A stretch of DNA of 63,823 nt, counting the filler, from Licmophora abbreviata (Eukaryota), in the NCBI GenBank assembly GCA_900291995.1. It is 8 parts of 8 records of this genome, joined end to end, with 100 filler letters (N's around TTAATTAATTAA, not from the genome) between each part and the next. Parts side by side here need not be neighbours in the genome. Positions count along the whole stretch, not along the records: positions 33,283 to 43,946 come from OLMU01000238.1; 7 more parts are not named here. One strand, given 5' to 3'. The notes beneath the pieces were generated by a model. It was given only the letters and a program-made list of their open reading frames with translations, searched no databases and was not told the origin of the DNA. The stretch's first letter is position 1, and each line of letters opens with the position of its first letter. The position numbers were made by a program, and so were the translations under genes. Below are positions 18,621-62,008 of the stretch, in pieces.

Positions 18621-18720
18621 NNNNNNNNNNNNNNNNNNNNNNNNNNNNNNNNNNNNNNNNNNNNTTAATTAATTAANNNNNNNNNNNNNNNNNNNNNNNN
18701 NNNNNNNNNNNNNNNNNNNN
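18621..18720. other. Artificial scaffold linker
   Basis: N44-TTAATTAATTAA-N44, giving stops in all six frames. Confidence 0.98.
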
Positions 18721-30778: not shown

Positions 30779-33545
30779 TCAATCGAGAGGGTAGATGGTG
30801 TTGTCAGAAAACACGATAAGTCCCTCATTTTCCAATTCCTTCACAGTCGACAGGATTTCATCGCGATCCTCGACGTCTGTGCAAGCGTCTTCCAGTCCGA
30901 GTTCGCCAGAAGTAGTGACTTGTTCCCAGATACGAGTCTTGAGCGTCTTTGAGCTCCCTGCTTCGTCAAGGCGCATCCGCTTGTTACTTTGTTCCCCCGA
31001 GTCGGATTCCCCGTCATCCGATGCATCGGCCGACTCCCCGTCGTCGGATACATCGACAGTCTTCGCGTTCTCTTTGGCAGTTTGATGCGCGATATCTTCA
31101 TTGTTCTCGTGGTAAAGGGCAAAACTGAGAATATCCATCGCAGCCTTTACGTCAGGCTCGGCTTCGACCACATGGCTCAATCGCGCCTAGGAGAAGAGCG
31201 AAGACACATGTGTGAGTGGATTAAGGCATCATATTCACTCCAGGACCAACTATCTCACACTTACTTTTGCGTGCGCACTAGCGAGACGAATAACAGTTTC
31301 CAAGCTACGAGCGGTCACAGGTAGCGTACGCTCGTCTTGACGGCTTCGCATTTCAGCATATCGGTTCGCGATGCACTCCCGGGCCTCTTCCGTCAATACG
31401 GGCTTGATCCTTGCCTTGGCAAAATGCAAGTACTTTCGTAGAAAGTCATGCTGTAGCACGTCGTTAGCGTGAGAATCAGAATCTTCCTTCGTATTCAAGT
31501 GCGTGTAGGAGGAGGACTGTGAATTTTGGGCGCGAGATCGCTGCCACACAGAGTGCACCCGCTCTGAGCCCCCACTCTCTCCGACTACCTCCGCAACAGA
31601 ATCTTCGTCGTCGTCATCGTAATCGCTATCATGTCCCGTTTGCCCGTTCCCTGGACGATAACGGTGACCGCGAATCACATGCGCGGCAATGCGACGGTCA
31701 GTCTCGGGGTCAAGCTGATCAAGTACAACAAACAGCAAGTCAAAACGACTCAAGAGCGAATCTGGCAGTCCAATGTTTTCTTGAATACGACGCTTCCTAT
31801 CGTACTGTCCATACACAGGGTTAGCAGCCGCCAGAACAGAGCATCGTGCGTTCAGACTCGCGTGGATGCCGGCCTTGGCAATAGTGACGGTCTGCTGTTC
31901 CATTGCTTCATGAATTGCCACGCGATCGTTCTCTCCCATCTTGTCGAACTCATCGACGCAAACCAGTCCACGGTCAGCAAGAACCATGGCGCCCGCTTCG
32001 AGCCGACGCTCCCTTGTTTCCGGATCAGATGTGACGGCAGCTGTGAGACCTACACCGGAAGAACCCTTTCCTGTAGTCGACACTGCCAGTGGTGCAATCG
32101 TCATGGCAGATCGAAGGAGCTGACTCTTGGCAGTCGAGGGATCGCCAACCATGAGTACGTTTATGTCTCCACGTAGATGAGTACCATTTTCAAGATTCTT
32201 CTCGCAGCCTGACAAGAGTTGCAGGGCAAGCGCCTTTTTAATGACAGCGTGTCCATGAATAGACGGAGCCATGCTGCGTCCAAGAATGGAAAGAATGTCA
32301 TCGCGCTTGGCGAGCGATCGAATAGTGCGGATGTCTTGAGGTGAAAAGGTCAAGTGACTGACGTCGCGTCCCAGAATCTGTATATTGTTAGTGAGGACTA
32401 CCGTCTTGAAGACGCCGGTAGAGGTCAATACGCCCGATGTCGAATTTGCAAGAGCACGGTAAACGCCGACGACCTGGACGCGGTCGCCAGGCTTGATGCG
32501 ATCGACGAGATCGTGATCGAGAACGAGTTCGATGGATCGAGGAAGCTGCCCCATCGGTGCACGTTCTGGCATCTCTTGTAGAGTGATGGTTTGGTGATCC
32601 TTGAATGTCGAGAGTCCAAACTCAGTCTCCATTGGATTCCCTTCGCTATCCTTGGTTGGATACACAGAAGATGTGATGTTGATGATGCGGTCAGGTTGCT
32701 CGCGTCCGGACGAGTCTACTGCCTGAAGTCCAAGATGAGGATCCGTGGCGTCAACATAATCACGCGAATGATGCGTGTCGGTCGTAGGAACGTAGTGGAC
32801 CGACTTGACGACCTTCGGTTTGATGGCCGACACCTACGGGATTCAAGCAAGATGAAATGACATCGTAAGCGACAGCGACGACAAAGAATACGAATACCAA
32901 TCACTCTTCTTTTCACTCGAGTACGATCGTACCTTCGTTGCAACTCCCTCCACGCAAACAAGTTGTCGAAGCGAAGACGACGTGAGTTCGCGAGGGCTAG
33001 ATGGGACCGCTCCAACAGGACCAGTCAGGGCCACTTTGATCTGGACATTGTCCTTGTCATAGCCAGGGCGCTCCTCGCTAGCAATCGCATGACACGCTGC
33101 CTCAAGTGCTCTCAAATGACGAAGCGGGTCCAATCGCAAGCGTTGCGACAAGCGAGCATCTTCCGAGCGGATCTCCGCCATGNNNNNNNNNNNNNNNNNN
33201 NNNNNNNNNNNNNNNNNNNNNNNNNNTTAATTAATTAANNNNNNNNNNNNNNNNNNNNNNNNNNNNNNNNNNNNNNNNNNNNTGCTTCCCTGCTCCACTA
33301 TTAGACGACGCTCTGTGGACGTAGTCATCGATTGCCGTTGCTATCCGGTCTATGTGATTGAAACGCTGTATAGACAAGAGAGGAAGAGATGTCAGCGACA
33401 CCGGACAGCCCATCATTGTTTCCCATGTAAAGTCCCAAGCAAAACATATCGTTCGCTCGTCTCTCACCTCACTGCGAAGGAAGTCCTCGAACCTAGCGCG
33501 CAGCTCGTTGAGACTGTTCATTCCTGTATCCATTTCCGCCGCCAT
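30779..33545 (-). CDS. MCM3: DNA replication licensing factor MCM3
   Basis: QEMPERAPMGQLPRS, GDPSTAKSQLLR, VDEFDKM, LLSRFDLLF, PVTARSLET. Introns 33366-33467, 32834-32932 and 31187-31264. Spans the linker at 33183-33282. Confidence 0.96.
33183..33282. other. Artificial scaffold linker (inside MCM3)
   Basis: N44-TTAATTAATTAA-N44. Confidence 0.98.
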
Positions 33546-38594: not shown

Positions 38595-41060
38595 CTACAC
38601 ATACTCCGGGAACTGGGCTTGCAGGTGCTTCGCCAAAGCGTCTTTACCAGCACCCGGATGAGTCATCATCCAATTTTCTTGCTCGTCCATTACCTCTCGG
38701 AATCCGGGACCTTTCGGTATTCTATGAAACATCTTCTTCATTTCTCCGCCATCCAGCAGAGGTTTTTGTCCCCATACGCCGATAAGTCCCAGCTGTTGTA
38801 CAGCCGCGGCGAAGGCGTCATAACGATCGATGATACCCTGTCGTGTTTCTTCTTGACTTTCGCCAACCTGAAATTTCACGTGGAAGATAGGACATGAGTG
38901 AGAGCCAAATCTTCAAGCAGAAGACTCGGAGATTGATCGTAATCAGAAACTTACCACATCGCCTTCGATGAAGATATCGTCGCTCAGAGAAACAAGCTGT
39001 TCACTCAGAGACAACACCAGCGCAGCGCGCCACAGAGGACCAACTCGGTCGATAACCTTCGACGTGAGCAAACGGAATTCCATTGCATGCGCCCACATGG
39101 GGTCATCTTCCGTCTCGCTGTCAACCTCAGATGATTTCATGCGGCATTTGAGAGTGCCACTTGCTTCGTCACCTTGAAATCTCACTTCGATTCCGCTCAA
39201 CAGAACGGACACGGCCGACAAGTCGCAACCGCTATTAATCAGATTGGTAATGTCATCTGCAGCATTCATGATTTTCCTGACGGCGTCAGCGTCTCGTATT
39301 GGCCGCTTGAGCTCGTTTGTCAGCAAGTTGCAGACGGCAGATCGGCGAGTTTTCTTCCCCGCGCGTCGACCTTGAGTCTTCGCCTGCTCAACCTTCAATG
39401 CATAATCTCGAAATGGCTTGAGGAAGGCAGCGTACCACAAGAGCCGTCGCGCTTCCTCGTCTTCTAAGAGAGACAGCTCTCGAGCTCCATAGGTGCGTGC
39501 GATTTCAGACCGCCTCTTCTCACACCACATGGGCAAATTCACCTTGCAGTCGCAAAGATAATCGTGTGCGGCAGACAAAGACGCCAATCCTTTGGAAAAG
39601 ATGACATCAGGATTCAAGACTTCGTCGGTGCATCTTCCCACTGGAAGTACTGTTTCAATCAAGTGCAGGTTTCGAAGCAACCGCATAGCTCCCACTGGGT
39701 CCGGCGACCGGAGCATCAGGTCGACCTCACCGCCGACTCGTTCTCGCGAAACTTTCTGTGCCAACGCATTGCGTACGCGAATGTCTTGAGCGGCCTCGAC
39801 CAGCGCATCATCCATGGTGAAGCGCAGTCGGGCCGCAAAACGGATCGATCTTAATACTCGAAGTGGATCGTCCAACAGAGTTGTCAGAGGGGCTAATGGT
39901 GTAGCAATTATACCGCGCTGCAGGTCGTCCAGGCCCCTTCCTGTCCAATCTTCAATCTGTCCCGTATTGATGTTGTAAAACAAGGCATTGATCGTCAGAT
40001 CTCTTCGAAATGCATCTTCAGAAGGAGTGCCGATACGCATCAAGTCGGGAATGCGACTATCCTGCGTGTACTCTTCTGCTCGCAAGTTCACAAAATCAAT
40101 CCAGAAGCTATTCACTTTCATCGTCGCCGTCTCGAGATGCTTCGACTTCTCTGGATTCTTTAGAACGACTCCTACCGACACTGTCTTCTTTCCCTGTTGC
40201 TGCAAGTACTCGTTCAGGTGATCTGCAAATTCTCGACCAAGCATGTCGTTGAGGGCAATATCAATGTCGACCGGCTGATTCTGTTCAGCATCGTTATTTG
40301 ATGCATTCATGAGAGCATCCCTCCTCTTAATCACCTTTGTCCCTTGTCGCCCCATTGACGGCTGGTGTTGCTTCTGATGACCGTGCTTCTGCGCAAATTT
40401 TGACGTCAGTCTCTGTGCTACGCCCTTCTTCCAATGATCCGTCTGGCTCAAAGACAGATCCCGCAAATGTGCGTACTCAGGTGTCGCCAAGAGCTTGTCA
40501 CGCACCCATCCACCGGCGACTCGGAGCGTCGTGCCGTCAATCCCAGTGTCTTTTACCACGTGGCGCAGCAATAGAAAGAGTTCGCGCTCCTCCTCCGTCA
40601 GCATAAGAGATGTCGACTCCTGAGACTTGGGAGGTTCCATTTTGTTATTGTTGTGGGTAGAGTACACATTACTAGAGCCACTCGAGAAGGTCGAAGAGCA
40701 TGCACCGTTGAAAGGCTTGGCACTGTCATCCTTCCTGCCATAACTGCTTCGCGGTAGGTCCGACAGGGTGCTCATAGTCGGGACAGGCAATTCGAGAGTT
40801 GCGCCGCCGCCGAAGAATCTCAATTCGCGAGACGAGAGAGTCATAGTCACACTCTTTCGCGCAATTCTCTCGTGCATCGCTGATAACGAAGTCGGTGCAT
40901 GCGAATTTCGGGGAATCTTGACGGCGGCCCGGCCGACCCGTCTGGGAGTCTCTAGAAACGCTCGGCTCTTGCAGGCGAGCCAACCGCAACATGCGGTCAT
41001 CAGTATCCGACCGCAACTGCGCCGCCGACGACGAGAATACGGTTGACCGGCGCTGCTCAT
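38595..41060 (-). CDS. CCA1: CCA tRNA nucleotidyltransferase (class II)
   Basis: LRVAGGWVRDKLL, DIDIAL, KSKHLETAT, DFVNLRAEEY, RRDLTINALFYN, DDPLRVLRSIRF. Intron 38868-38954. Start uncertain. Confidence 0.93.
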
Positions 41061-41844: not shown

Positions 41845-41850
41845 AAAAAA
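41845..41850 (-). terminator. RNA Pol III terminator (T6) of the permuted tRNA gene
   Basis: TTTTTT on the minus strand, 7 nt after tRNA position 37. Confidence 0.85.
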
Positions 41851-41857
41851 GAACGCA

Positions 41858-41941
41858 CATAAGACCACCACTCTGACCACTGAGTTACACGAGCTTCGAA
41901 AGAAGTGCTCGAGGCGAGGGTCGAACTCGCGACCAGTGGCT
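41858..41941 (-). tRNA. trnI-UAU: Circularly permuted tRNA-Ile(UAU) gene: 3' half 41941-41906, 11-nt spacer, 5' half 41894-41858
   Basis: Minus strand reads AGCCACTGGTCGCGAGTTCGACCCTCGCCTCGAGCA (nt 38-73), cttctttcgaa, then GCTCGTGTAACTCAGTGGTCAGAGTGGTGGTCTTATG (nt 1-37). Swapping the halves gives a 73-nt cloverleaf: acceptor GCTCGTG/CTCGAGC, D stem ACTC/GAGT, anticodon stem GTGGT/GCCAC with loop CTTATGA, T stem GCGAG/CTCGC with loop TTCGACC. Confidence 0.93.
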
Positions 41942-41975
41942 ATTTCAGCGTCCGTACTACAGACAGAAGGGCAAA

Positions 41976-41989
41976 TTTATGTATATAAA
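41976..41989 (-). promoter_or_regulatory. TATA box upstream of the permuted tRNA
   Basis: TTTATATACATAAA on the minus strand; TATATA starts 34 nt upstream of the leader helix at 41953. Confidence 0.65.
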
Positions 41990-43946: not shown

Positions 43947-44046
43947 NNNNNNNNNNNNNNNNNNNNNNNNNNNNNNNNNNNNNNNNNNNNTTAATTAATT
44001 AANNNNNNNNNNNNNNNNNNNNNNNNNNNNNNNNNNNNNNNNNNNN
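43947..44046. other. Artificial scaffold linker
   Basis: N44-TTAATTAATTAA-N44. Confidence 0.98.
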
Positions 44047-46370: not shown

Positions 46371-47677
46371 ATGAATTCTTCCCTCAGGTCTCTTCTAGTT
46401 CTCCTCGCATTCACTGTTGCTTCATCGTTACCTTCGAGCAAAGATGCATGCAACGAGGAGCAGCGACAAGACCATCCCGTGTTCTGTCGCATGATGGATC
46501 GAGTCATTCACGACCCGAAGCTGGTCGCTACCGAAATGAAGCAGTGGGCTGAATCCCACGGACTCTTGATTGACTTTCCCGCGGCCTCAGAAGGCACTGT
46601 CTCTTCAGCTAGTATCTCCACAGAGCGTCGTCGGTTAGGTCAACTCGTCAATGACAACACAACTGCTACGCCCGTCGTCTTCGCGCACGGCATGGGAGAT
46701 TCCTGTTTCAACGACGGGATGCAGCGCCTTGCGGCACGTACCTCCGACTCCTTGGGCGGTGTGCACTCGAATTGTATCGCGACGGGCAAGTCGCAGCATG
46801 AGGATACTGTGAATGGATACTTCATGAGCATGGATGCCAATGTCGAAATCTTCGCCGAGGGGGTCCGGGCAGATTCTAAATTGCAGGGAGGATTCCATGC
46901 GATTGGACTATCGCAAGGTAACAATGTCATTCGGGGATACATTCAGAAGTACAACGACCCTCCTGTCAAGACTTTCCTTTCAATCAATGGCCCGATTGCT
47001 GGTATCGGGGCCGTCCCTTACTGTCGACCCAAGGATGACCTGAAGACCGACAGCGGAGAGTCGTTAACATTCGACATGTGCGAGCTACTACAGGACGCAG
47101 CGTCGAACCGAGCTTACACTGAGTACATTCAAGAGCATAACTTCCAAGCGAACTATTGGCGTGATCCGCGACCATCAGAGGCGGATGCCTACAAACAGTT
47201 TGGACAATTGGCGAACTGGAATAACGAGGGATACACGGTCAATGCGACTCTCAAAGAAAACTTTGCCAGGACGGAGAAGTTTGTGTGGGTCATGGCGGAA
47301 CAGGATCAAATGGTATGGCCCAAGGAAGGGGAACAGTGGGGTGCTCCTGACCCAGAAGATCCATTCAGCTCGATCTTGCCCATGAAGGACACAGACTGGT
47401 ACAAGCAAGATCTGTTTGGCTTGCGCACGGCAGAGGAAGACGGCAAAAACAACTATGAATCCTTTCAGGGAGATCATCTGCAGTTTTCCATGCAGCAGTA
47501 TGANNNNNNNNNNNNNNNNNNNNNNNNNNNNNNNNNNNNNNNNNNNNTTAATTAATTAANNNNNNNNNNNNNNNNNNNNNNNNNNNNNNNNNNNNNNNNN
47601 NNNAATCCTTTCAGGGAGATCATCTGCAGTTTTCCATGCAGCAGTATGACGATTGGATTACAAAATACCTCATGTGA
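46371..47677 (+). CDS. PPT1: Palmitoyl-protein thioesterase 1 (secreted/lysosomal)
   Basis: Signal peptide, PVVFAHGMGDSC, GLSQG, QANYWRDP, GDHLQFS. C-terminus DDWITKYLM* lies after the linker. Confidence 0.92.
47504..47603. other. Artificial scaffold linker over a spurious gap
   Basis: 47458-47503 is identical to 47604-47649. Confidence 0.97.
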
Positions 47678-51212: not shown

Positions 51213-52482
51213 ATGACCATGGCGATTGTGAACACAGTCTTCAGTGTCCTAAGCCTGCTGGGCTGCAGTGGAGATAGCTTGGCCTTTTCGACACATTCGG
51301 CGTCCCGCGTTATAAGTCGACCCGCGCCGCGACTTTCGAATCGCCATGCCGATCTTTCGATGATGTCTGACGCCGGTGATGGTAGCGACGGTGTATCCAG
51401 CAGCCCCTCGCAACTAGAATCGATCGTTCGCANNNNNNNNNNNNNNNNNNNNNNNNNNNNNNNNNNNNNNNNNNNNTTAATTAATTAANNNNNNNNNNNN
51501 NNNNNNNNNNNNNNNNNNNNNNNNNNNNNNNNAGACGTTTGCTGGAGGGTGGTCGGTCTTGCCCAAGTTTGGATTGCCGTCCGTGCCTTTCTCTTTGGAA
51601 TCACTCCAAATTGTTTTGCCGTATGCCATGACTATGGCAGCTGTTGGAGCCATTGAATCGCTGCTGACACTGCAGCTAGTGGATGGAATGGTGGACGATG
51701 GTACTCGGGGATCTACGAGCAAGGAATGCATCGGTCAAGGCGCCGGGAACATTGTGAGCGGTCTAACGGGAGGGATTGGTGGATGCGCCTTGGTTGGGCA
51801 AAGTGTTATTAATGTTCAGAGCGGAGGAGGGGTCTCTCGGTGGTCTGGCATGAGCATGGCACTCTTTTTGGCTACAGGTATTGTTGCGGCAGCACCTTTG
51901 CTGGGGTCGGTGCCGGTCGCGTCGCTTGTTGGCGTTATGCTGTTGGTGTGCCAATCCACATTTTCATGGTCGTCACTGCGAATACTGCGTCGTATCCCGA
52001 AAGTCGATGCTCTTGTCATTGCGCTTGTGTCCATACTGACAGTCAAGAAGGACCTGGCAGTTGCAGTTGTTGCTGGAACGATTGCGAGTGCCTTGGGATT
52101 CGCCTGGAAGCAGTCGACGAGACTGACCGGTACATCCGAATTGGACGGAGACACCAAGATTTATCACTTGTATGGACCGCTATTCTTTGGATCGACCGGT
52201 CAGTTCTCAGCGCTTTTTGACAGCAAGTCAGACCCGAAGGAAGTTGTGCTTGATTTCTCCTACAGCCGTGTCATGGACCACTCCGCACTCAAGGCCATTC
52301 ATACACTCTCAGACCAGTATGGTGCTGCAGGAACGACCGTGTACCTTCGCCATTTGTCGAAGGACTGTGCGTCTTTACTAGAACGACTCTACAAGAATCG
52401 CAACGAGGTTATCAAGGCTGATCCGGAGACTGATCCTGTGTATGGAGTGGCCGTCAGATATGGCAGCGATATGCCCTTGTAG
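51213..52482 (+). CDS. SulP/SLC26 anion transporter with STAS domain, probably plastid-targeted; middle lost in the gap
   Basis: AAVGAIESLLT, ECIGQG.GNI..GGIGGCALVGQSVIN; STAS motifs YGPLFFGS, LDFS..DHSAL. 5' piece has a signal peptide plus LAF. Joining across the gap is inferred. Confidence 0.85.
51433..51532. other. Artificial scaffold linker
   Basis: N44-TTAATTAATTAA-N44. Confidence 0.98.
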
Positions 52483-59227: not shown

Positions 59228-59327
59228 NNNNNNNNNNNNNNNNNNNNNNNNNNNNNNNNNNNNNNNNNNNNTTAATTAATTAANNNNNNNNNNNNNNNNN
59301 NNNNNNNNNNNNNNNNNNNNNNNNNNN
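59228..59327. other. Artificial scaffold linker
   Basis: N44-TTAATTAATTAA-N44. Confidence 0.98.
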
Positions 59328-59368
59328 ATTGGGTTTATCCCGCGTAGGTTCGAGTCCTACCAGTGTCG
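59328..59368 (+). tRNA. 3' part of a class II tRNA, probably tRNA-Ser (5' part in the gap)
   Basis: Long variable arm GGG-TTTAT-CCC, T arm GTAGG-TTCGAGT-CCTAC, acceptor strand CAGTGTC, discriminator G, TTTT at 59375-59378. Confidence 0.8.
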
Positions 59369-59657
59369 CTTTCCTTTTATAAATGGGTGTGCATAAGTCT
59401 GACTAGTCTACCAAGGTACGAGGCTAACTTGTGGCACCTTGTGACTTCATGAATGAAAAAAAAATGGCACCTAGCAACAGGGTGGTTTACAACTTTAATT
59501 GTATAATCAGTTAGAGCACTAGAATGGTGGCATGCCCTGAACTAATTTTGATGTGGTTGTTCGGCAGGGTGGCGTTAGTCTAAACGACGCAATGCAATGG
59601 ATGCATGATATCTGAATATGATCTCTATCGAGACATGTTCGTCCAGTGAAAGTGGTC

Positions 59658-61908: not shown

Positions 61909-62008
61909 NNNNNNNNNNNNNNNNNNNNNNNNNNNNNNNNNNNNNNNNNNNNTTAATTAATTAANNNNNNNNNNNNNNNNNNNNNNNNNNNNNNNNNNNN
62001 NNNNNNNN
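61909..62008. other. Artificial scaffold linker
   Basis: N44-TTAATTAATTAA-N44. Confidence 0.98.

What the first reader, a model, noticed from the sequence alone, without database searches (positions are those of the whole stretch)
41851..41953. Leader and trailer of the permuted tRNA form a bulge-helix-bulge-like splice motif at 37/38
The leader is GGACGC-UGAA-AU|A38 (41953-41941) and the trailer is G37|U-GCGUUC (41858-41851). GGACGC pairs with GCGUUC over 6 bp (one G-U). U36-G37-U forms one 3-nt bulge and A-U-A38 forms the other. The central helix C32-U33-U34-A35 / UGAA has 3 of 4 pairs, with a C-A mismatch at position 32. This is BHB geometry with both cut sites after the second bulge base. 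Complementarity between flanks about 90 nt apart argues for a functional gene over an assembly artefact. It also fits an origin by tandem duplication of an intron-containing tRNA followed by loss of the outer halves (inference).
Basis: partly seen in the sequence, partly recalled or inferred. Interest (0 to 1): 0.8.

Follow-up and report, generated by a model that had tools for sequence, protein, structure and literature searches.

The report
Back-to-front isoleucine tRNA gene, diatom-like alga
This is a real isoleucine tRNA gene written back to front, whose two flanks pair to form the cut-and-rejoin signal, and it appears to be the first such gene seen in diatom-like algae.

Summary
On the minus strand lie a TATA-like box, a leader, the 3' half (A38-A73), an 11-nt spacer, the 5' half (G1-G37), a trailer and T6. 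GGACGC pairs with GCGUUC (6 bp, one G-U). UGAA pairs with A35-U34-U33 and mismatches C32. Rejoined at 37/38, the halves give a 73-nt tRNA-Ile(UAU) (ARAGORN 115.3); in native order nothing is found.

One metagenome scan found 16 more permuted copies in 15 loci, two of them syntenic. The leader-trailer helix is kept through changes on both sides at 6 of 6 pairs (covariation 0.453 against 0.150 in shuffles, 0 of 500). TATA boxes and T-runs sit at conserved distances.

Best reading (0.85): a type II circularly permuted tRNA gene, matured as in Cyanidioschyzon merolae. The splicing endonuclease cuts in the two bulges, a ligase joins G37 to A38 into an 84-nt circle, RNase P and tRNase Z remove the spacer, and CCA is added. 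None of this processing is shown; no RNA data were available.

The contig's CCA-adding enzyme best matches diatoms. My literature searches found no permuted tRNA in stramenopiles and no permuted Ile(UAU). It is a new member of a known kind.

The parts
41973..41987 (-). TATA-like upstream element (TATATACATAAATTT), 46 to 32 nt upstream of A38; presumed TFIIIB/Pol III promoter element
   Evidence: A TATA tetramer lies at -65..-31 in 14 of 16 distinct family rows, against 3/16, 6/15, 0/14 and 2/14 in control windows. PlantRNA 2012 reports an AT-rich region at -30 to -40 of diatom tRNA genes (PMC3531208, passage).
41948..41953 (-). Leader strand of the outer helix h' (GGACGC)
   Evidence: Pairs with 41851-41856 over 6 of 6 positions, one G-U. 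The homologous columns covary in the family.
41944..41947 (-). Leader strand of the central helix H (UGAA), opposite A35-U34-U33-C32
   Evidence: 3 of 4 pairs; A41944 mismatches C32. In 14 of 15 family copies this last position is G and pairs with C32.
41941..41943 (-). 3' bulge A-U-A38; inferred 3' cut between 41942 and 41941
   Evidence: The geometry follows. A38 is invariant in 15 of 15. The cut itself is inferred.
41906..41941 (-). 3' half of tRNA-Ile(UAU), positions 38-73: anticodon-stem 3' strand, variable loop, T arm, acceptor 3' strand, discriminator A73
   Evidence: A73 is invariant while the spacer behind it varies.
41895..41905 (-). [quoted passage not shown]
   Evidence: Spacers of 5-14 nt with unrelated sequence in relatives. 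There is no T4 run between 30 nt upstream of A38 and G37 in 15 of 16 rows.
41858..41894 (-). 5' half of tRNA-Ile(UAU), positions 1-37: acceptor 5' strand, D arm, anticodon-stem 5' strand, C32 U33 U34 A35 U36 G37
   Evidence: a single copy in the window, 0 chance matches in 100 shuffles.
41857..41859 (-). 5' bulge U36-G37-U; inferred 5' cut between 41858 and 41857
   Evidence: G37 is invariant in 15 of 15. Collinear relatives carry the loop CUUAUGA, which confirms that G37 and A38 adjoin in the mature tRNA.
41851..41856 (-). Trailer strand of the outer helix h' (GCGUUC)
41845..41850 (-). T6 run, presumed Pol III terminator directly behind the helix
   Evidence: A T4 run lies within +1..+30 of G37 in 12 of 14 family rows, against 3/14 and 1/14 in control windows.

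Best explanation
A nuclear, circularly permuted (type II, junction 37/38) gene for tRNA-Ile(UAU) in a diatom-like alga.

Inferred pathway: RNA polymerase III starts downstream of the TATA-like box and stops at the T6 run. The roughly 110-nt precursor folds into a cloverleaf whose acceptor stem is closed by the 11-nt spacer. Leader and trailer pair over 6 bp. This holds the two open ends of the anticodon loop together and presents G37|U and U|A38 in two 3-nt bulges on either side of a weak 4-bp helix made with C32-A35.

The tRNA splicing endonuclease then cuts both bulges. As this is a eukaryote, it is probably guided by the mature domain and the anticodon-intron pair as well. The tRNA ligase joins G37 to A38, which gives an 84-nt circle (36 + 11 + 37). 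RNase P and tRNase Z open the acceptor loop and CCA is added, giving a 76-nt tRNA that reads AUA.

Shown here: the gene order, the cloverleaf, the helix and its covariation, and the conserved promoter and terminator positions. Inferred by analogy with Cyanidioschyzon merolae and green algae: transcription, both cuts, the circle, end processing and charging.
For: (1) Anatomy. Searches confirm the coordinates and the pairs. ARAGORN calls the script-rejoined halves tRNA-Ile(tat) in 17 of 17 rows (window 115.3; range 106.3-115.9) and finds 0 of 17 in native order. It also finds nothing in the window as it stands.

(2) Family. One metagenome scan gave 16 further permuted copies in 15 of 119 loci. 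All have G37, A38 and A73, and spacers of 5-14 nt. There is also one copy cut by a contig end (L004). Two run contigs carry the same order: X1 record 3 spans the T arm, acceptor, a spacer 3 nt shorter, and the 5' acceptor and D arm; X3 record 7 has a 6-nt spacer.

(3) Orthology. L046 and L018 share the LSm-domain ORF next to the gene (92% and 83% amino-acid identity). L046 also shares ATG11 (77%).

(4) Covariation of the motif. The paired run in h' averages 3.47 for cognate pairs against 1.01 for non-cognate pairs. Leader-trailer duplex energy is -8.27 against -5.48 kcal/mol, 0 of 5000 permutations. For the two BHB helices alone, 74.7% of cells pair against 57.7% in shuffles (0/500) and 24.7-48.7% in slid registers; all 6 h' pairs changed on both sides. 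RNAalifold independently predicts the outer helix in this register together with the anticodon, T and D arms.

(5) The leader positions opposite U34-U33-C32 are A, A, G in most copies (10, 13 and 14 of 15 standard pairs), although they are discarded.

(6) TATA and T-run enrichment at fixed distances.

(7) AUA is used: 42 of 8965 codons in 19 ORFs.

(8) The published pathway for such genes is in PMC3978253, sections 4, 6 and 8.
Against: No RNA evidence of any kind was available, so expression, the cuts and the circle are all untested.

The central helix is weak. ViennaRNA and RNAalifold both leave it open. The 116-nt precursor is not more stable than shuffles (z = -0.83).

The window copy has A opposite C32 where 14 of 15 copies have G. 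The anticodon-intron pair that eukaryotic endonucleases use is therefore missing here.

The acceptor stem has a U6.U67 mismatch (6:67 is paired in only 4 of 15 copies). G37 is unusual for a tRNA that reads an A-starting codon (recalled: A37/t6A is the rule).

The search pattern fixed the D arm and CTTAT, so their conservation is not independent.

Several family rows are close relatives of each other, so the shuffle counts overstate independence.

Whether the genome also has a collinear Ile(UAU) gene could not be checked, because no genome is held.
Confidence: 0.85

Rival explanations
1. A Y-RNA-like or tRNA-like non-coding RNA. The roughly 110-nt transcript stays linear. The leader-trailer helix is part of the mature RNA, and the T-arm, closed acceptor hairpin and D-arm module serves as a tRNA mimic, as in bacterial YrlA.
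For: The best Rfam match to the locus is YrlA RF02553, full length, E = 2.7e-4. YrlA RNAs are described as resembling circularly permuted tRNAs with closed acceptor loops (bioRxiv 10.1101/312249, passages). Covariation of the outer helix fits this reading as well as it fits a splice motif. An upstream TATA box and a T-run are also typical of eukaryotic Y RNA genes (recalled).
Against: The score is 28 bits against a gathering score of 69. YrlA lacks an anticodon loop. Here both halves of a 7-nt loop are kept, with G37 and A38 invariant and matching the CUUAUGA loop of collinear relatives. The 7-bp acceptor stem is followed by an invariant A73 while the loop behind it varies freely. The helix is only 3-6 bp long. 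None of 22 ORFs scanned has a TROVE (Ro) domain, though those ORFs lie on several contigs of a fragmented assembly.
Confidence: 0.05
2. A dead relic: the inner halves left over from a tandem pair of tRNA-Ile genes, no longer expressed, with flank complementarity inherited from a former intron.
For: Tandem duplication followed by loss of the outer halves is the published origin model. L015/L041 show a degenerate tandem array with an incomplete 3' half. The window copy has the A.C32 and U6.U67 mismatches.
Against: 16 further copies keep every tRNA feature. The halves, TATA box and T-run are conserved while the flanks and spacers diverge. The helix is kept by compensatory changes. Synteny with LSm across three loci at 77-92% protein identity shows long-term retention. 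U6.U67 is shared with a collinear relative that has the same acceptor stem (L067).
Confidence: 0.04
3. An assembly or binning artefact: two tRNA fragments wrongly joined in a fragmented metagenome-type assembly.
For: The window is a chain of short contigs joined by N44-TTAATTAATTAA-N44 linkers at seven places.
Against: The locus lies 2 kb or more inside its contig (33283-43946). The same order occurs on 15 independent metagenome loci and on 2 run contigs.
Confidence: 0.01

Closest known systems
[quoted passage not shown] 2007; review PMC3978253, Table 1 and sections 4, 6, 8 read)
   Same: The 3' half lies upstream of the 5' half on one strand. A short intervening sequence (7-74 nt there, 11 nt here) carries no promoter or terminator. 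There is a TATA-like box within about 50 bp upstream and a T-stretch downstream. Leader and trailer form a BHB-type motif at the junction, and CCA is not encoded.
   Different: None of the 34 listed permuted genes is Ile(UAU). The host here is diatom-like (stramenopile) and not a red alga. The circular intermediate is shown there by RT-PCR and only inferred here.
Permuted tRNA genes of prasinophyte green algae (Ostreococcus, Micromonas), the Bigelowiella natans nucleomorph (Maruyama et al. 2010, seen only as cited in PMC3978253) and Auxenochlorella (PMC12633428, passages)
   Same: Almost all have their junction at 37/38 with an hBH-type motif, the arrangement expected for a eukaryotic endonuclease that measures from the mature domain.
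   Different: Other isoacceptors (Ser, Leu, Cys, Arg, Asn, iMet) and a green lineage. Here an outer helix h' of 3-6 bp is also conserved, which makes the motif closer to hBHBh'.
tRNA-Ile(UAU) gene of C. merolae with three introns (PMC9602550, abstract and passages)
   Same: The same isoacceptor, also encoded in disrupted form and dependent on the splicing machinery.
   Different: [quoted passage not shown] The paper suggests t6A37 from a reverse-transcription pause at position 37, whereas this family has G37.
YrlA (Rfam RF02553), bacterial Y-RNA-like tRNA mimic
   Same: The same topology: basal stem, T arm, closed acceptor hairpin, D arm.
   Different: Bacterial, linked to the Rsr/Ro gene, and without an anticodon loop. 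The score here is far below the family threshold.
Permuted tRNA-iMet and tRNA-Tyr of the archaeon Thermofilum pendens (PMC3218864, passages)
   Same: A permuted order joined through a BHB motif.
   Different: The junction is at 59/60, CCA is encoded, and the organism is an archaeon.

Membership tests
Circularly permuted tRNA gene (sense of Soma et al. 2007) | 3' half encoded upstream of the 5' half on the same strand, separated by a short intervening sequence | tested here: met
   41941-41906, then 11 nt, then 41894-41858, all on the minus strand.
Circularly permuted tRNA gene (sense of Soma et al. 2007) | The rejoined halves give a canonical cloverleaf with the universal tRNA elements | tested here: met
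   ARAGORN calls tRNA-Ile(tat) at 115.3 on the rejoined halves and finds nothing in native order. U8, G18G19, U33, U54U55C56 and A73 are read directly. There is one acceptor mismatch, U6.U67.
Circularly permuted tRNA gene (sense of Soma et al. 2007) | Leader and trailer can form a BHB-type motif at the junction | tested here: met
   a relaxed form with covariation in h'.
Circularly permuted tRNA gene (sense of Soma et al. 2007) | One transcription unit: upstream TATA-like element, downstream T-stretch, no signal in between | tested here: met
   (sequence signals only; transcription itself was not observed).
Circularly permuted tRNA gene (sense of Soma et al. 2007) | Circular RNA intermediate and a mature tRNA with the 37/38 junction detected in RNA | not testable with these tools
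   No RNA holder was listed and no joints were seen in the four runs laid, all of which were contigs.
Strict hBHBh' bulge-helix-bulge motif | Two 3-nt bulges on opposite strands separated by a 4-bp helix | tested here: inconclusive
   The register allows exactly this, with a 7x7 internal loop between the anticodon stem and h'. However, H has only 3 of 4 pairs in the window and in 12 of 15 copies, and it is not predicted thermodynamically.
Strict hBHBh' bulge-helix-bulge motif | Flanking helices h and h' | tested here: met
   h is the 5-bp anticodon stem and h' is 6 bp. In the family, the four h' pairs nearest the bulge are paired in 14, 14, 11 and 11 of 15 copies.
Strict hBHBh' bulge-helix-bulge motif | Cleavage after the second base of each bulge | not testable with these tools
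   Inferred from the exon ends, which collinear relatives confirm as G37-A38.
Eukaryotic canonical 37/38 splice substrate | Anticodon-intron pair: position 32 pairs with the base 3 nt before the 3' cut (recalled; A.I pairs are mentioned in PMC3978253, section 8) | tested here: not met
   The window has A41944 opposite C32. 14 of 15 family copies have G:C there.
YrlA (RF02553) | Score at or above Rfam's gathering threshold | tested here: not met
   28 bits against 69. Nothing appeared in the gathering-threshold scan.

The most novel reading that the evidence does not exclude
A large group of diatoms or diatom-like algae encode their AUA-reading tRNA-Ile(UAU) only as this permuted gene. Circular-RNA tRNA maturation would then be an old, conserved part of translation in one of the ocean's main groups of primary producers, and the first case outside red and green algal lineages and archaea. 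In addition, the giant viruses that carry collinear copies of the same G37-type tRNA (6 of 6 viral hits) would have acquired it from the already rejoined RNA, or would supply a version that needs no host splicing.
Probability: 0.2. Interest if true: 0.78.

Novelty: new member of a known kind. Interest (0 to 1): 0.62.

Why it matters
Permuted tRNA genes are known from only a handful of lineages: one red alga, prasinophytes, Auxenochlorella, a chlorarachniophyte nucleomorph and one archaeon. Their physiological point is still unknown.

A conserved, syntenic family in diatom-like algae would extend the phenomenon to stramenopiles. It would show that standard tRNA finders miss an essential decoder there: ARAGORN and Rfam report nothing at this locus.

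It would also give a natural data set for the rules of the splice motif, because 15 distinct leader/trailer pairs keep the geometry with unrelated sequences.

If model diatoms carry the gene, the role of the circular intermediate becomes testable by genetics.

Tried and rejected
- **Own genome:** not held, so I could not look for a second Ile(UAU) gene, further permuted tRNAs, or TSEN, ligase or Ro60 genes.
- **Sequencing runs:** no RNA holder was listed.
- **Laid runs:** X1, X3, X7 and X8 were all contigs. There were no joints and no starts or ends, so this says nothing about expression.
- **Free-energy folding of 41845-41960**: the MFE is not the cloverleaf and z = -0.83. This is uninformative, as is usual for tRNAs.
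- **My first structure string** had wrong acceptor and D-arm coordinates. I corrected it.
- **Taxonomy of the other loci:** Pfam on 8 flank ORFs named only LSM and ATG11. The protein atlas on the L043 ORF gave a weak HTTM-like lead only. Except for L046 and L018, the loci remain unplaced.
- **Other T arms in the window:** a regular-expression scan found, besides this locus, only a truncated tRNA 3' part at 59328 and chance hits.
- **Papers not held:** Maruyama et al. 2010 and Marck and Grosjean 2003. Their content is cited only through the review or from recall. Supplements were not consulted.
- **Earlier notes of this scan:** nothing on this genome or sequence.
- **A SINE or repeat reading** was rejected. 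There is a single copy in the window, and the flanks covary instead of being unrelated.

Full report
**Observation.**
- Leader GGACGC-UGAA-AU is 41953-41942 and A38 is 41941.
- G37 is 41858, followed by U (41857), GCGUUC (41856-41851) and T6 (41850-41845).
- GGACGC pairs with GCGUUC at 6 of 6 positions, with one G-U.
- UGAA pairs with A35 and U33, wobbles with U34, and mismatches C32.

Among 210 non-cognate leader/trailer combinations of the family found later, a run of 6 or more pairs in this exact register occurred twice. Taken alone, the helix is therefore about a 1% event.

**The gene.**
The 3' half (A38-A73, 41941-41906) is followed by an 11-nt spacer (41905-41895) and the 5' half (G1-G37, 41894-41858).
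- ARAGORN and Rfam at gathering thresholds see nothing in the window.
- When a script rejoins the halves at 37/38, ARAGORN calls a 73-nt tRNA-Ile(tat) with score 115.3. In native order it calls none.
- The 5' half occurs once in the window. No outer halves flank the locus, so it is not a slice of a tandem array.

**Relatives.**
No genome is held for this window. Most hits are ordinary collinear tRNAs with A37: position 37 is A in 88, G in 32 and T in 2 of 122 matches.
- Fifteen loci carry 16 copies with the same permuted order. All have G37, A38 and A73, and spacers of 5-14 nt with unrelated sequence.
- L004 is a further copy cut by a contig end. L015/L041 are a degenerate tandem array.
- Two contigs from public runs show the same order. 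X1 record 3 spans T arm, acceptor, spacer (3 nt shorter), acceptor and D arm. X3 record 7 has a 6-nt spacer.
- L046 and L018 are orthologous places. They share the LSm-domain ORF beside the gene (92% and 83% amino-acid identity), and L046 also shares ATG11 (77%).

**Covariation of the motif.**

| Test | Cognate or observed | Control |
|---|---|---|
| Leader-trailer duplex energy | -8.27 kcal/mol | -5.48; 0 of 5000 permutations as low |
| Cells paired, two BHB helices alone (alignment A1, 15 distinct copies) | 74.7% | 57.7% in shuffles (0/500); 24.7-48.7% in slid registers |
| Covariation score, same helices | 0.453 | 0.150 (0/500) |

- All six outer-helix pairs show changes on both sides.
- RNAalifold was given no structure. 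It predicts the outer helix at the same columns together with the anticodon, T and D arms and part of the acceptor stem.
- The central helix cannot covary, because its tRNA side was fixed by my pattern. Its leader side, which is discarded, is nevertheless conserved: standard pairs with U34, U33 and C32 occur in 12, 14 and 14 of 15 copies.
- Neither ViennaRNA nor RNAalifold forms this weak helix. The motif is therefore a relaxed BHB.
- Some rows are close kin, so the shuffle counts overstate independence.

**Transcription signals.**
- A TATA tetramer lies 65-31 nt upstream of A38 in 14 of 16 distinct rows, against 3/16, 6/15, 0/14 and 2/14 in control windows.
- A T4 run lies within 30 nt after G37 in 12 of 14 rows, against 3/14 and 1/14 in controls.
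- Only 1 of 16 rows has a T4 run between 30 nt upstream of A38 and G37 (all).
- In the window the box is 41987-41973.
- PlantRNA 2012 describes an AT-rich region at -30 to -40 of diatom tRNA genes (PMC3531208, passage).
- Covariation of the helix implies that transcription starts upstream of 41953.

**Host and assembly.**
The window is a chain of contigs joined by N44-TTAATTAATTAA-N44 linkers. The tRNA contig is 33283-43946.
- It also encodes a CCA-adding enzyme, an LSm protein, ATG11 and a TLC-domain protein.
- All named best matches of the CCA enzyme are diatoms, among them Seminavis (61% identity), Fistulifera and Cylindrotheca.
- The same holds for an AMP deaminase on another contig.
- I therefore call the host diatom-like. 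This rests on best hits, not on a tree.
- AUA makes up 42 of 8965 codons in 19 ORFs.

**Mechanism.**
By analogy with C. merolae and green algae (PMC3978253, sections 6 and 8), the splicing endonuclease cuts at G37|U and U|A38. A ligase then closes an 84-nt circle, RNase P and tRNase Z remove the spacer, and CCA is added.

In a permuted precursor no intron loop ties the two ends together. The outer helix is therefore what holds them for the enzyme, which explains why it is kept by compensatory change.

None of these steps is shown here.

**Rivals.**
- The best Rfam match is YrlA, a bacterial tRNA mimic with the same topology. It scores 28 bits against a threshold of 69, and YrlA lacks an anticodon loop. 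Here both loop halves, G37, A38 and A73 are invariant. Collinear relatives carry the loop CUUAUGA.
- A dead relic is contradicted by conservation, synteny and covariation.
- An assembly artefact is contradicted by independent contigs.

**Known or new.**
Table 1 of the 2014 review lists 34 permuted genes. None is Ile(UAU) and none is from a stramenopile. Auxenochlorella was added in 2025.

Searches for 'permuted tRNA' together with diatom, stramenopile, heterokont, haptophyte, Phaeodactylum, Thalassiosira or PlantRNA returned no such report. Nor did a listing of 40 of the 46 papers since 2015 that hold the term. The library lacks most subscription journals, and Maruyama et al. 2010 could not be read.

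**Oddities left open.**
- G37 in a tRNA for an A-starting codon.
- Recurrent acceptor mismatches: U.U at 6:67 (paired in 4 of 15 copies) and C.A at 3:70 (paired in 6 of 15).
- A opposite C32 in the window copy only.
- Collinear copies of this tRNA type in 6 of 6 viral-contig hits, three of them on contigs labelled GVMAG, which I take to mean giant-virus genome bins.

Noticed in passing
window 18621-18720, 33183-33282, 43947-44046, 47504-47603, 51433-51532, 59228-59327, 61909-62008: Seven N44-TTAATTAATTAA-N44 linkers. The window is a chain of short contigs from a fragmented assembly, so genes on either side of a linker are not true neighbours.
   Followed up: yes
window 59328-59370 (+): A contig starts in the middle of a tRNA. 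It shows a long variable arm, a T arm (GTAGG TTCGAGT CCTAC), an acceptor 3' strand and G73, which looks like the 3' part of a class II (Ser-like) tRNA. No matching 5' strand lies in the roughly 130 nt read downstream (to 59500), so the gene is probably collinear and cut by the contig end.
   Followed up: partly
window 38943-41060 (-): A CCA-adding tRNA nucleotidyltransferase gene lies 0.8 kb downstream of the permuted tRNA on the same contig. The tRNA needs this enzyme, but the adjacency is probably coincidence.
   Followed up: partly
alignment A1, columns 44/70 and 47/67 (tRNA pairs 6:67 and 3:70): Two acceptor-stem positions are mismatched in most family members: U.U (or C.U) at 6:67 is paired in 4 of 15 copies, and C.A at 3:70 is paired in 6 of 15. 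This could be an identity element, editing or simple tolerance; it remains unexplained.
   Followed up: no
window 41858; all family loci: G37 is invariant in this Ile(UAU) family, in both permuted and collinear copies with the CUUAUGA loop. A37 (t6A) is the rule for tRNAs that read A-starting codons (recalled).
   Followed up: partly
L120-L125 (viral contigs); low-GC metagenome loci L028, L040, L045, L057, L067, L068, L097, L115: Collinear, intron-less tRNA-Ile(UAU) genes share the unusual A10-U25 D stem and G37. They make up 6 of 6 viral hits, three of them on contigs labelled GVMAG, which I take to mean giant-virus genome bins. L067 is 64 of 73 identical to the window's rejoined tRNA and has the same acceptor stem, including U6.U67.
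   Followed up: partly
L082:288-553: Two complete permuted copies in tandem, 158 nt apart, each with its own TATA-like box, leader/trailer helix and T-run. The permuted unit itself was duplicated.
   Followed up: partly
L015 and L041 (same sequence): A tandem array with a period of about 240 nt. Each unit holds a 5' half and a trailer, and one unit has only the end of a 3' half in front. It may be a degenerate or intermediate form.
   Followed up: no
L066 and L106: A 5' tRNA portion ending in CTTATG runs into unrelated sequence that holds the start of another tRNA. This resembles the nested tRNA-Ile genes noted earlier in this scan for bacteria (e1-2038646).
   Followed up: no
window 41847-41958 (-): The best Rfam match below threshold is YrlA (28 bits, E = 2.7e-4). 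A covariance model of a bacterial tRNA mimic picks up eukaryotic permuted tRNA genes, which could serve as a crude screen for them.
   Followed up: partly
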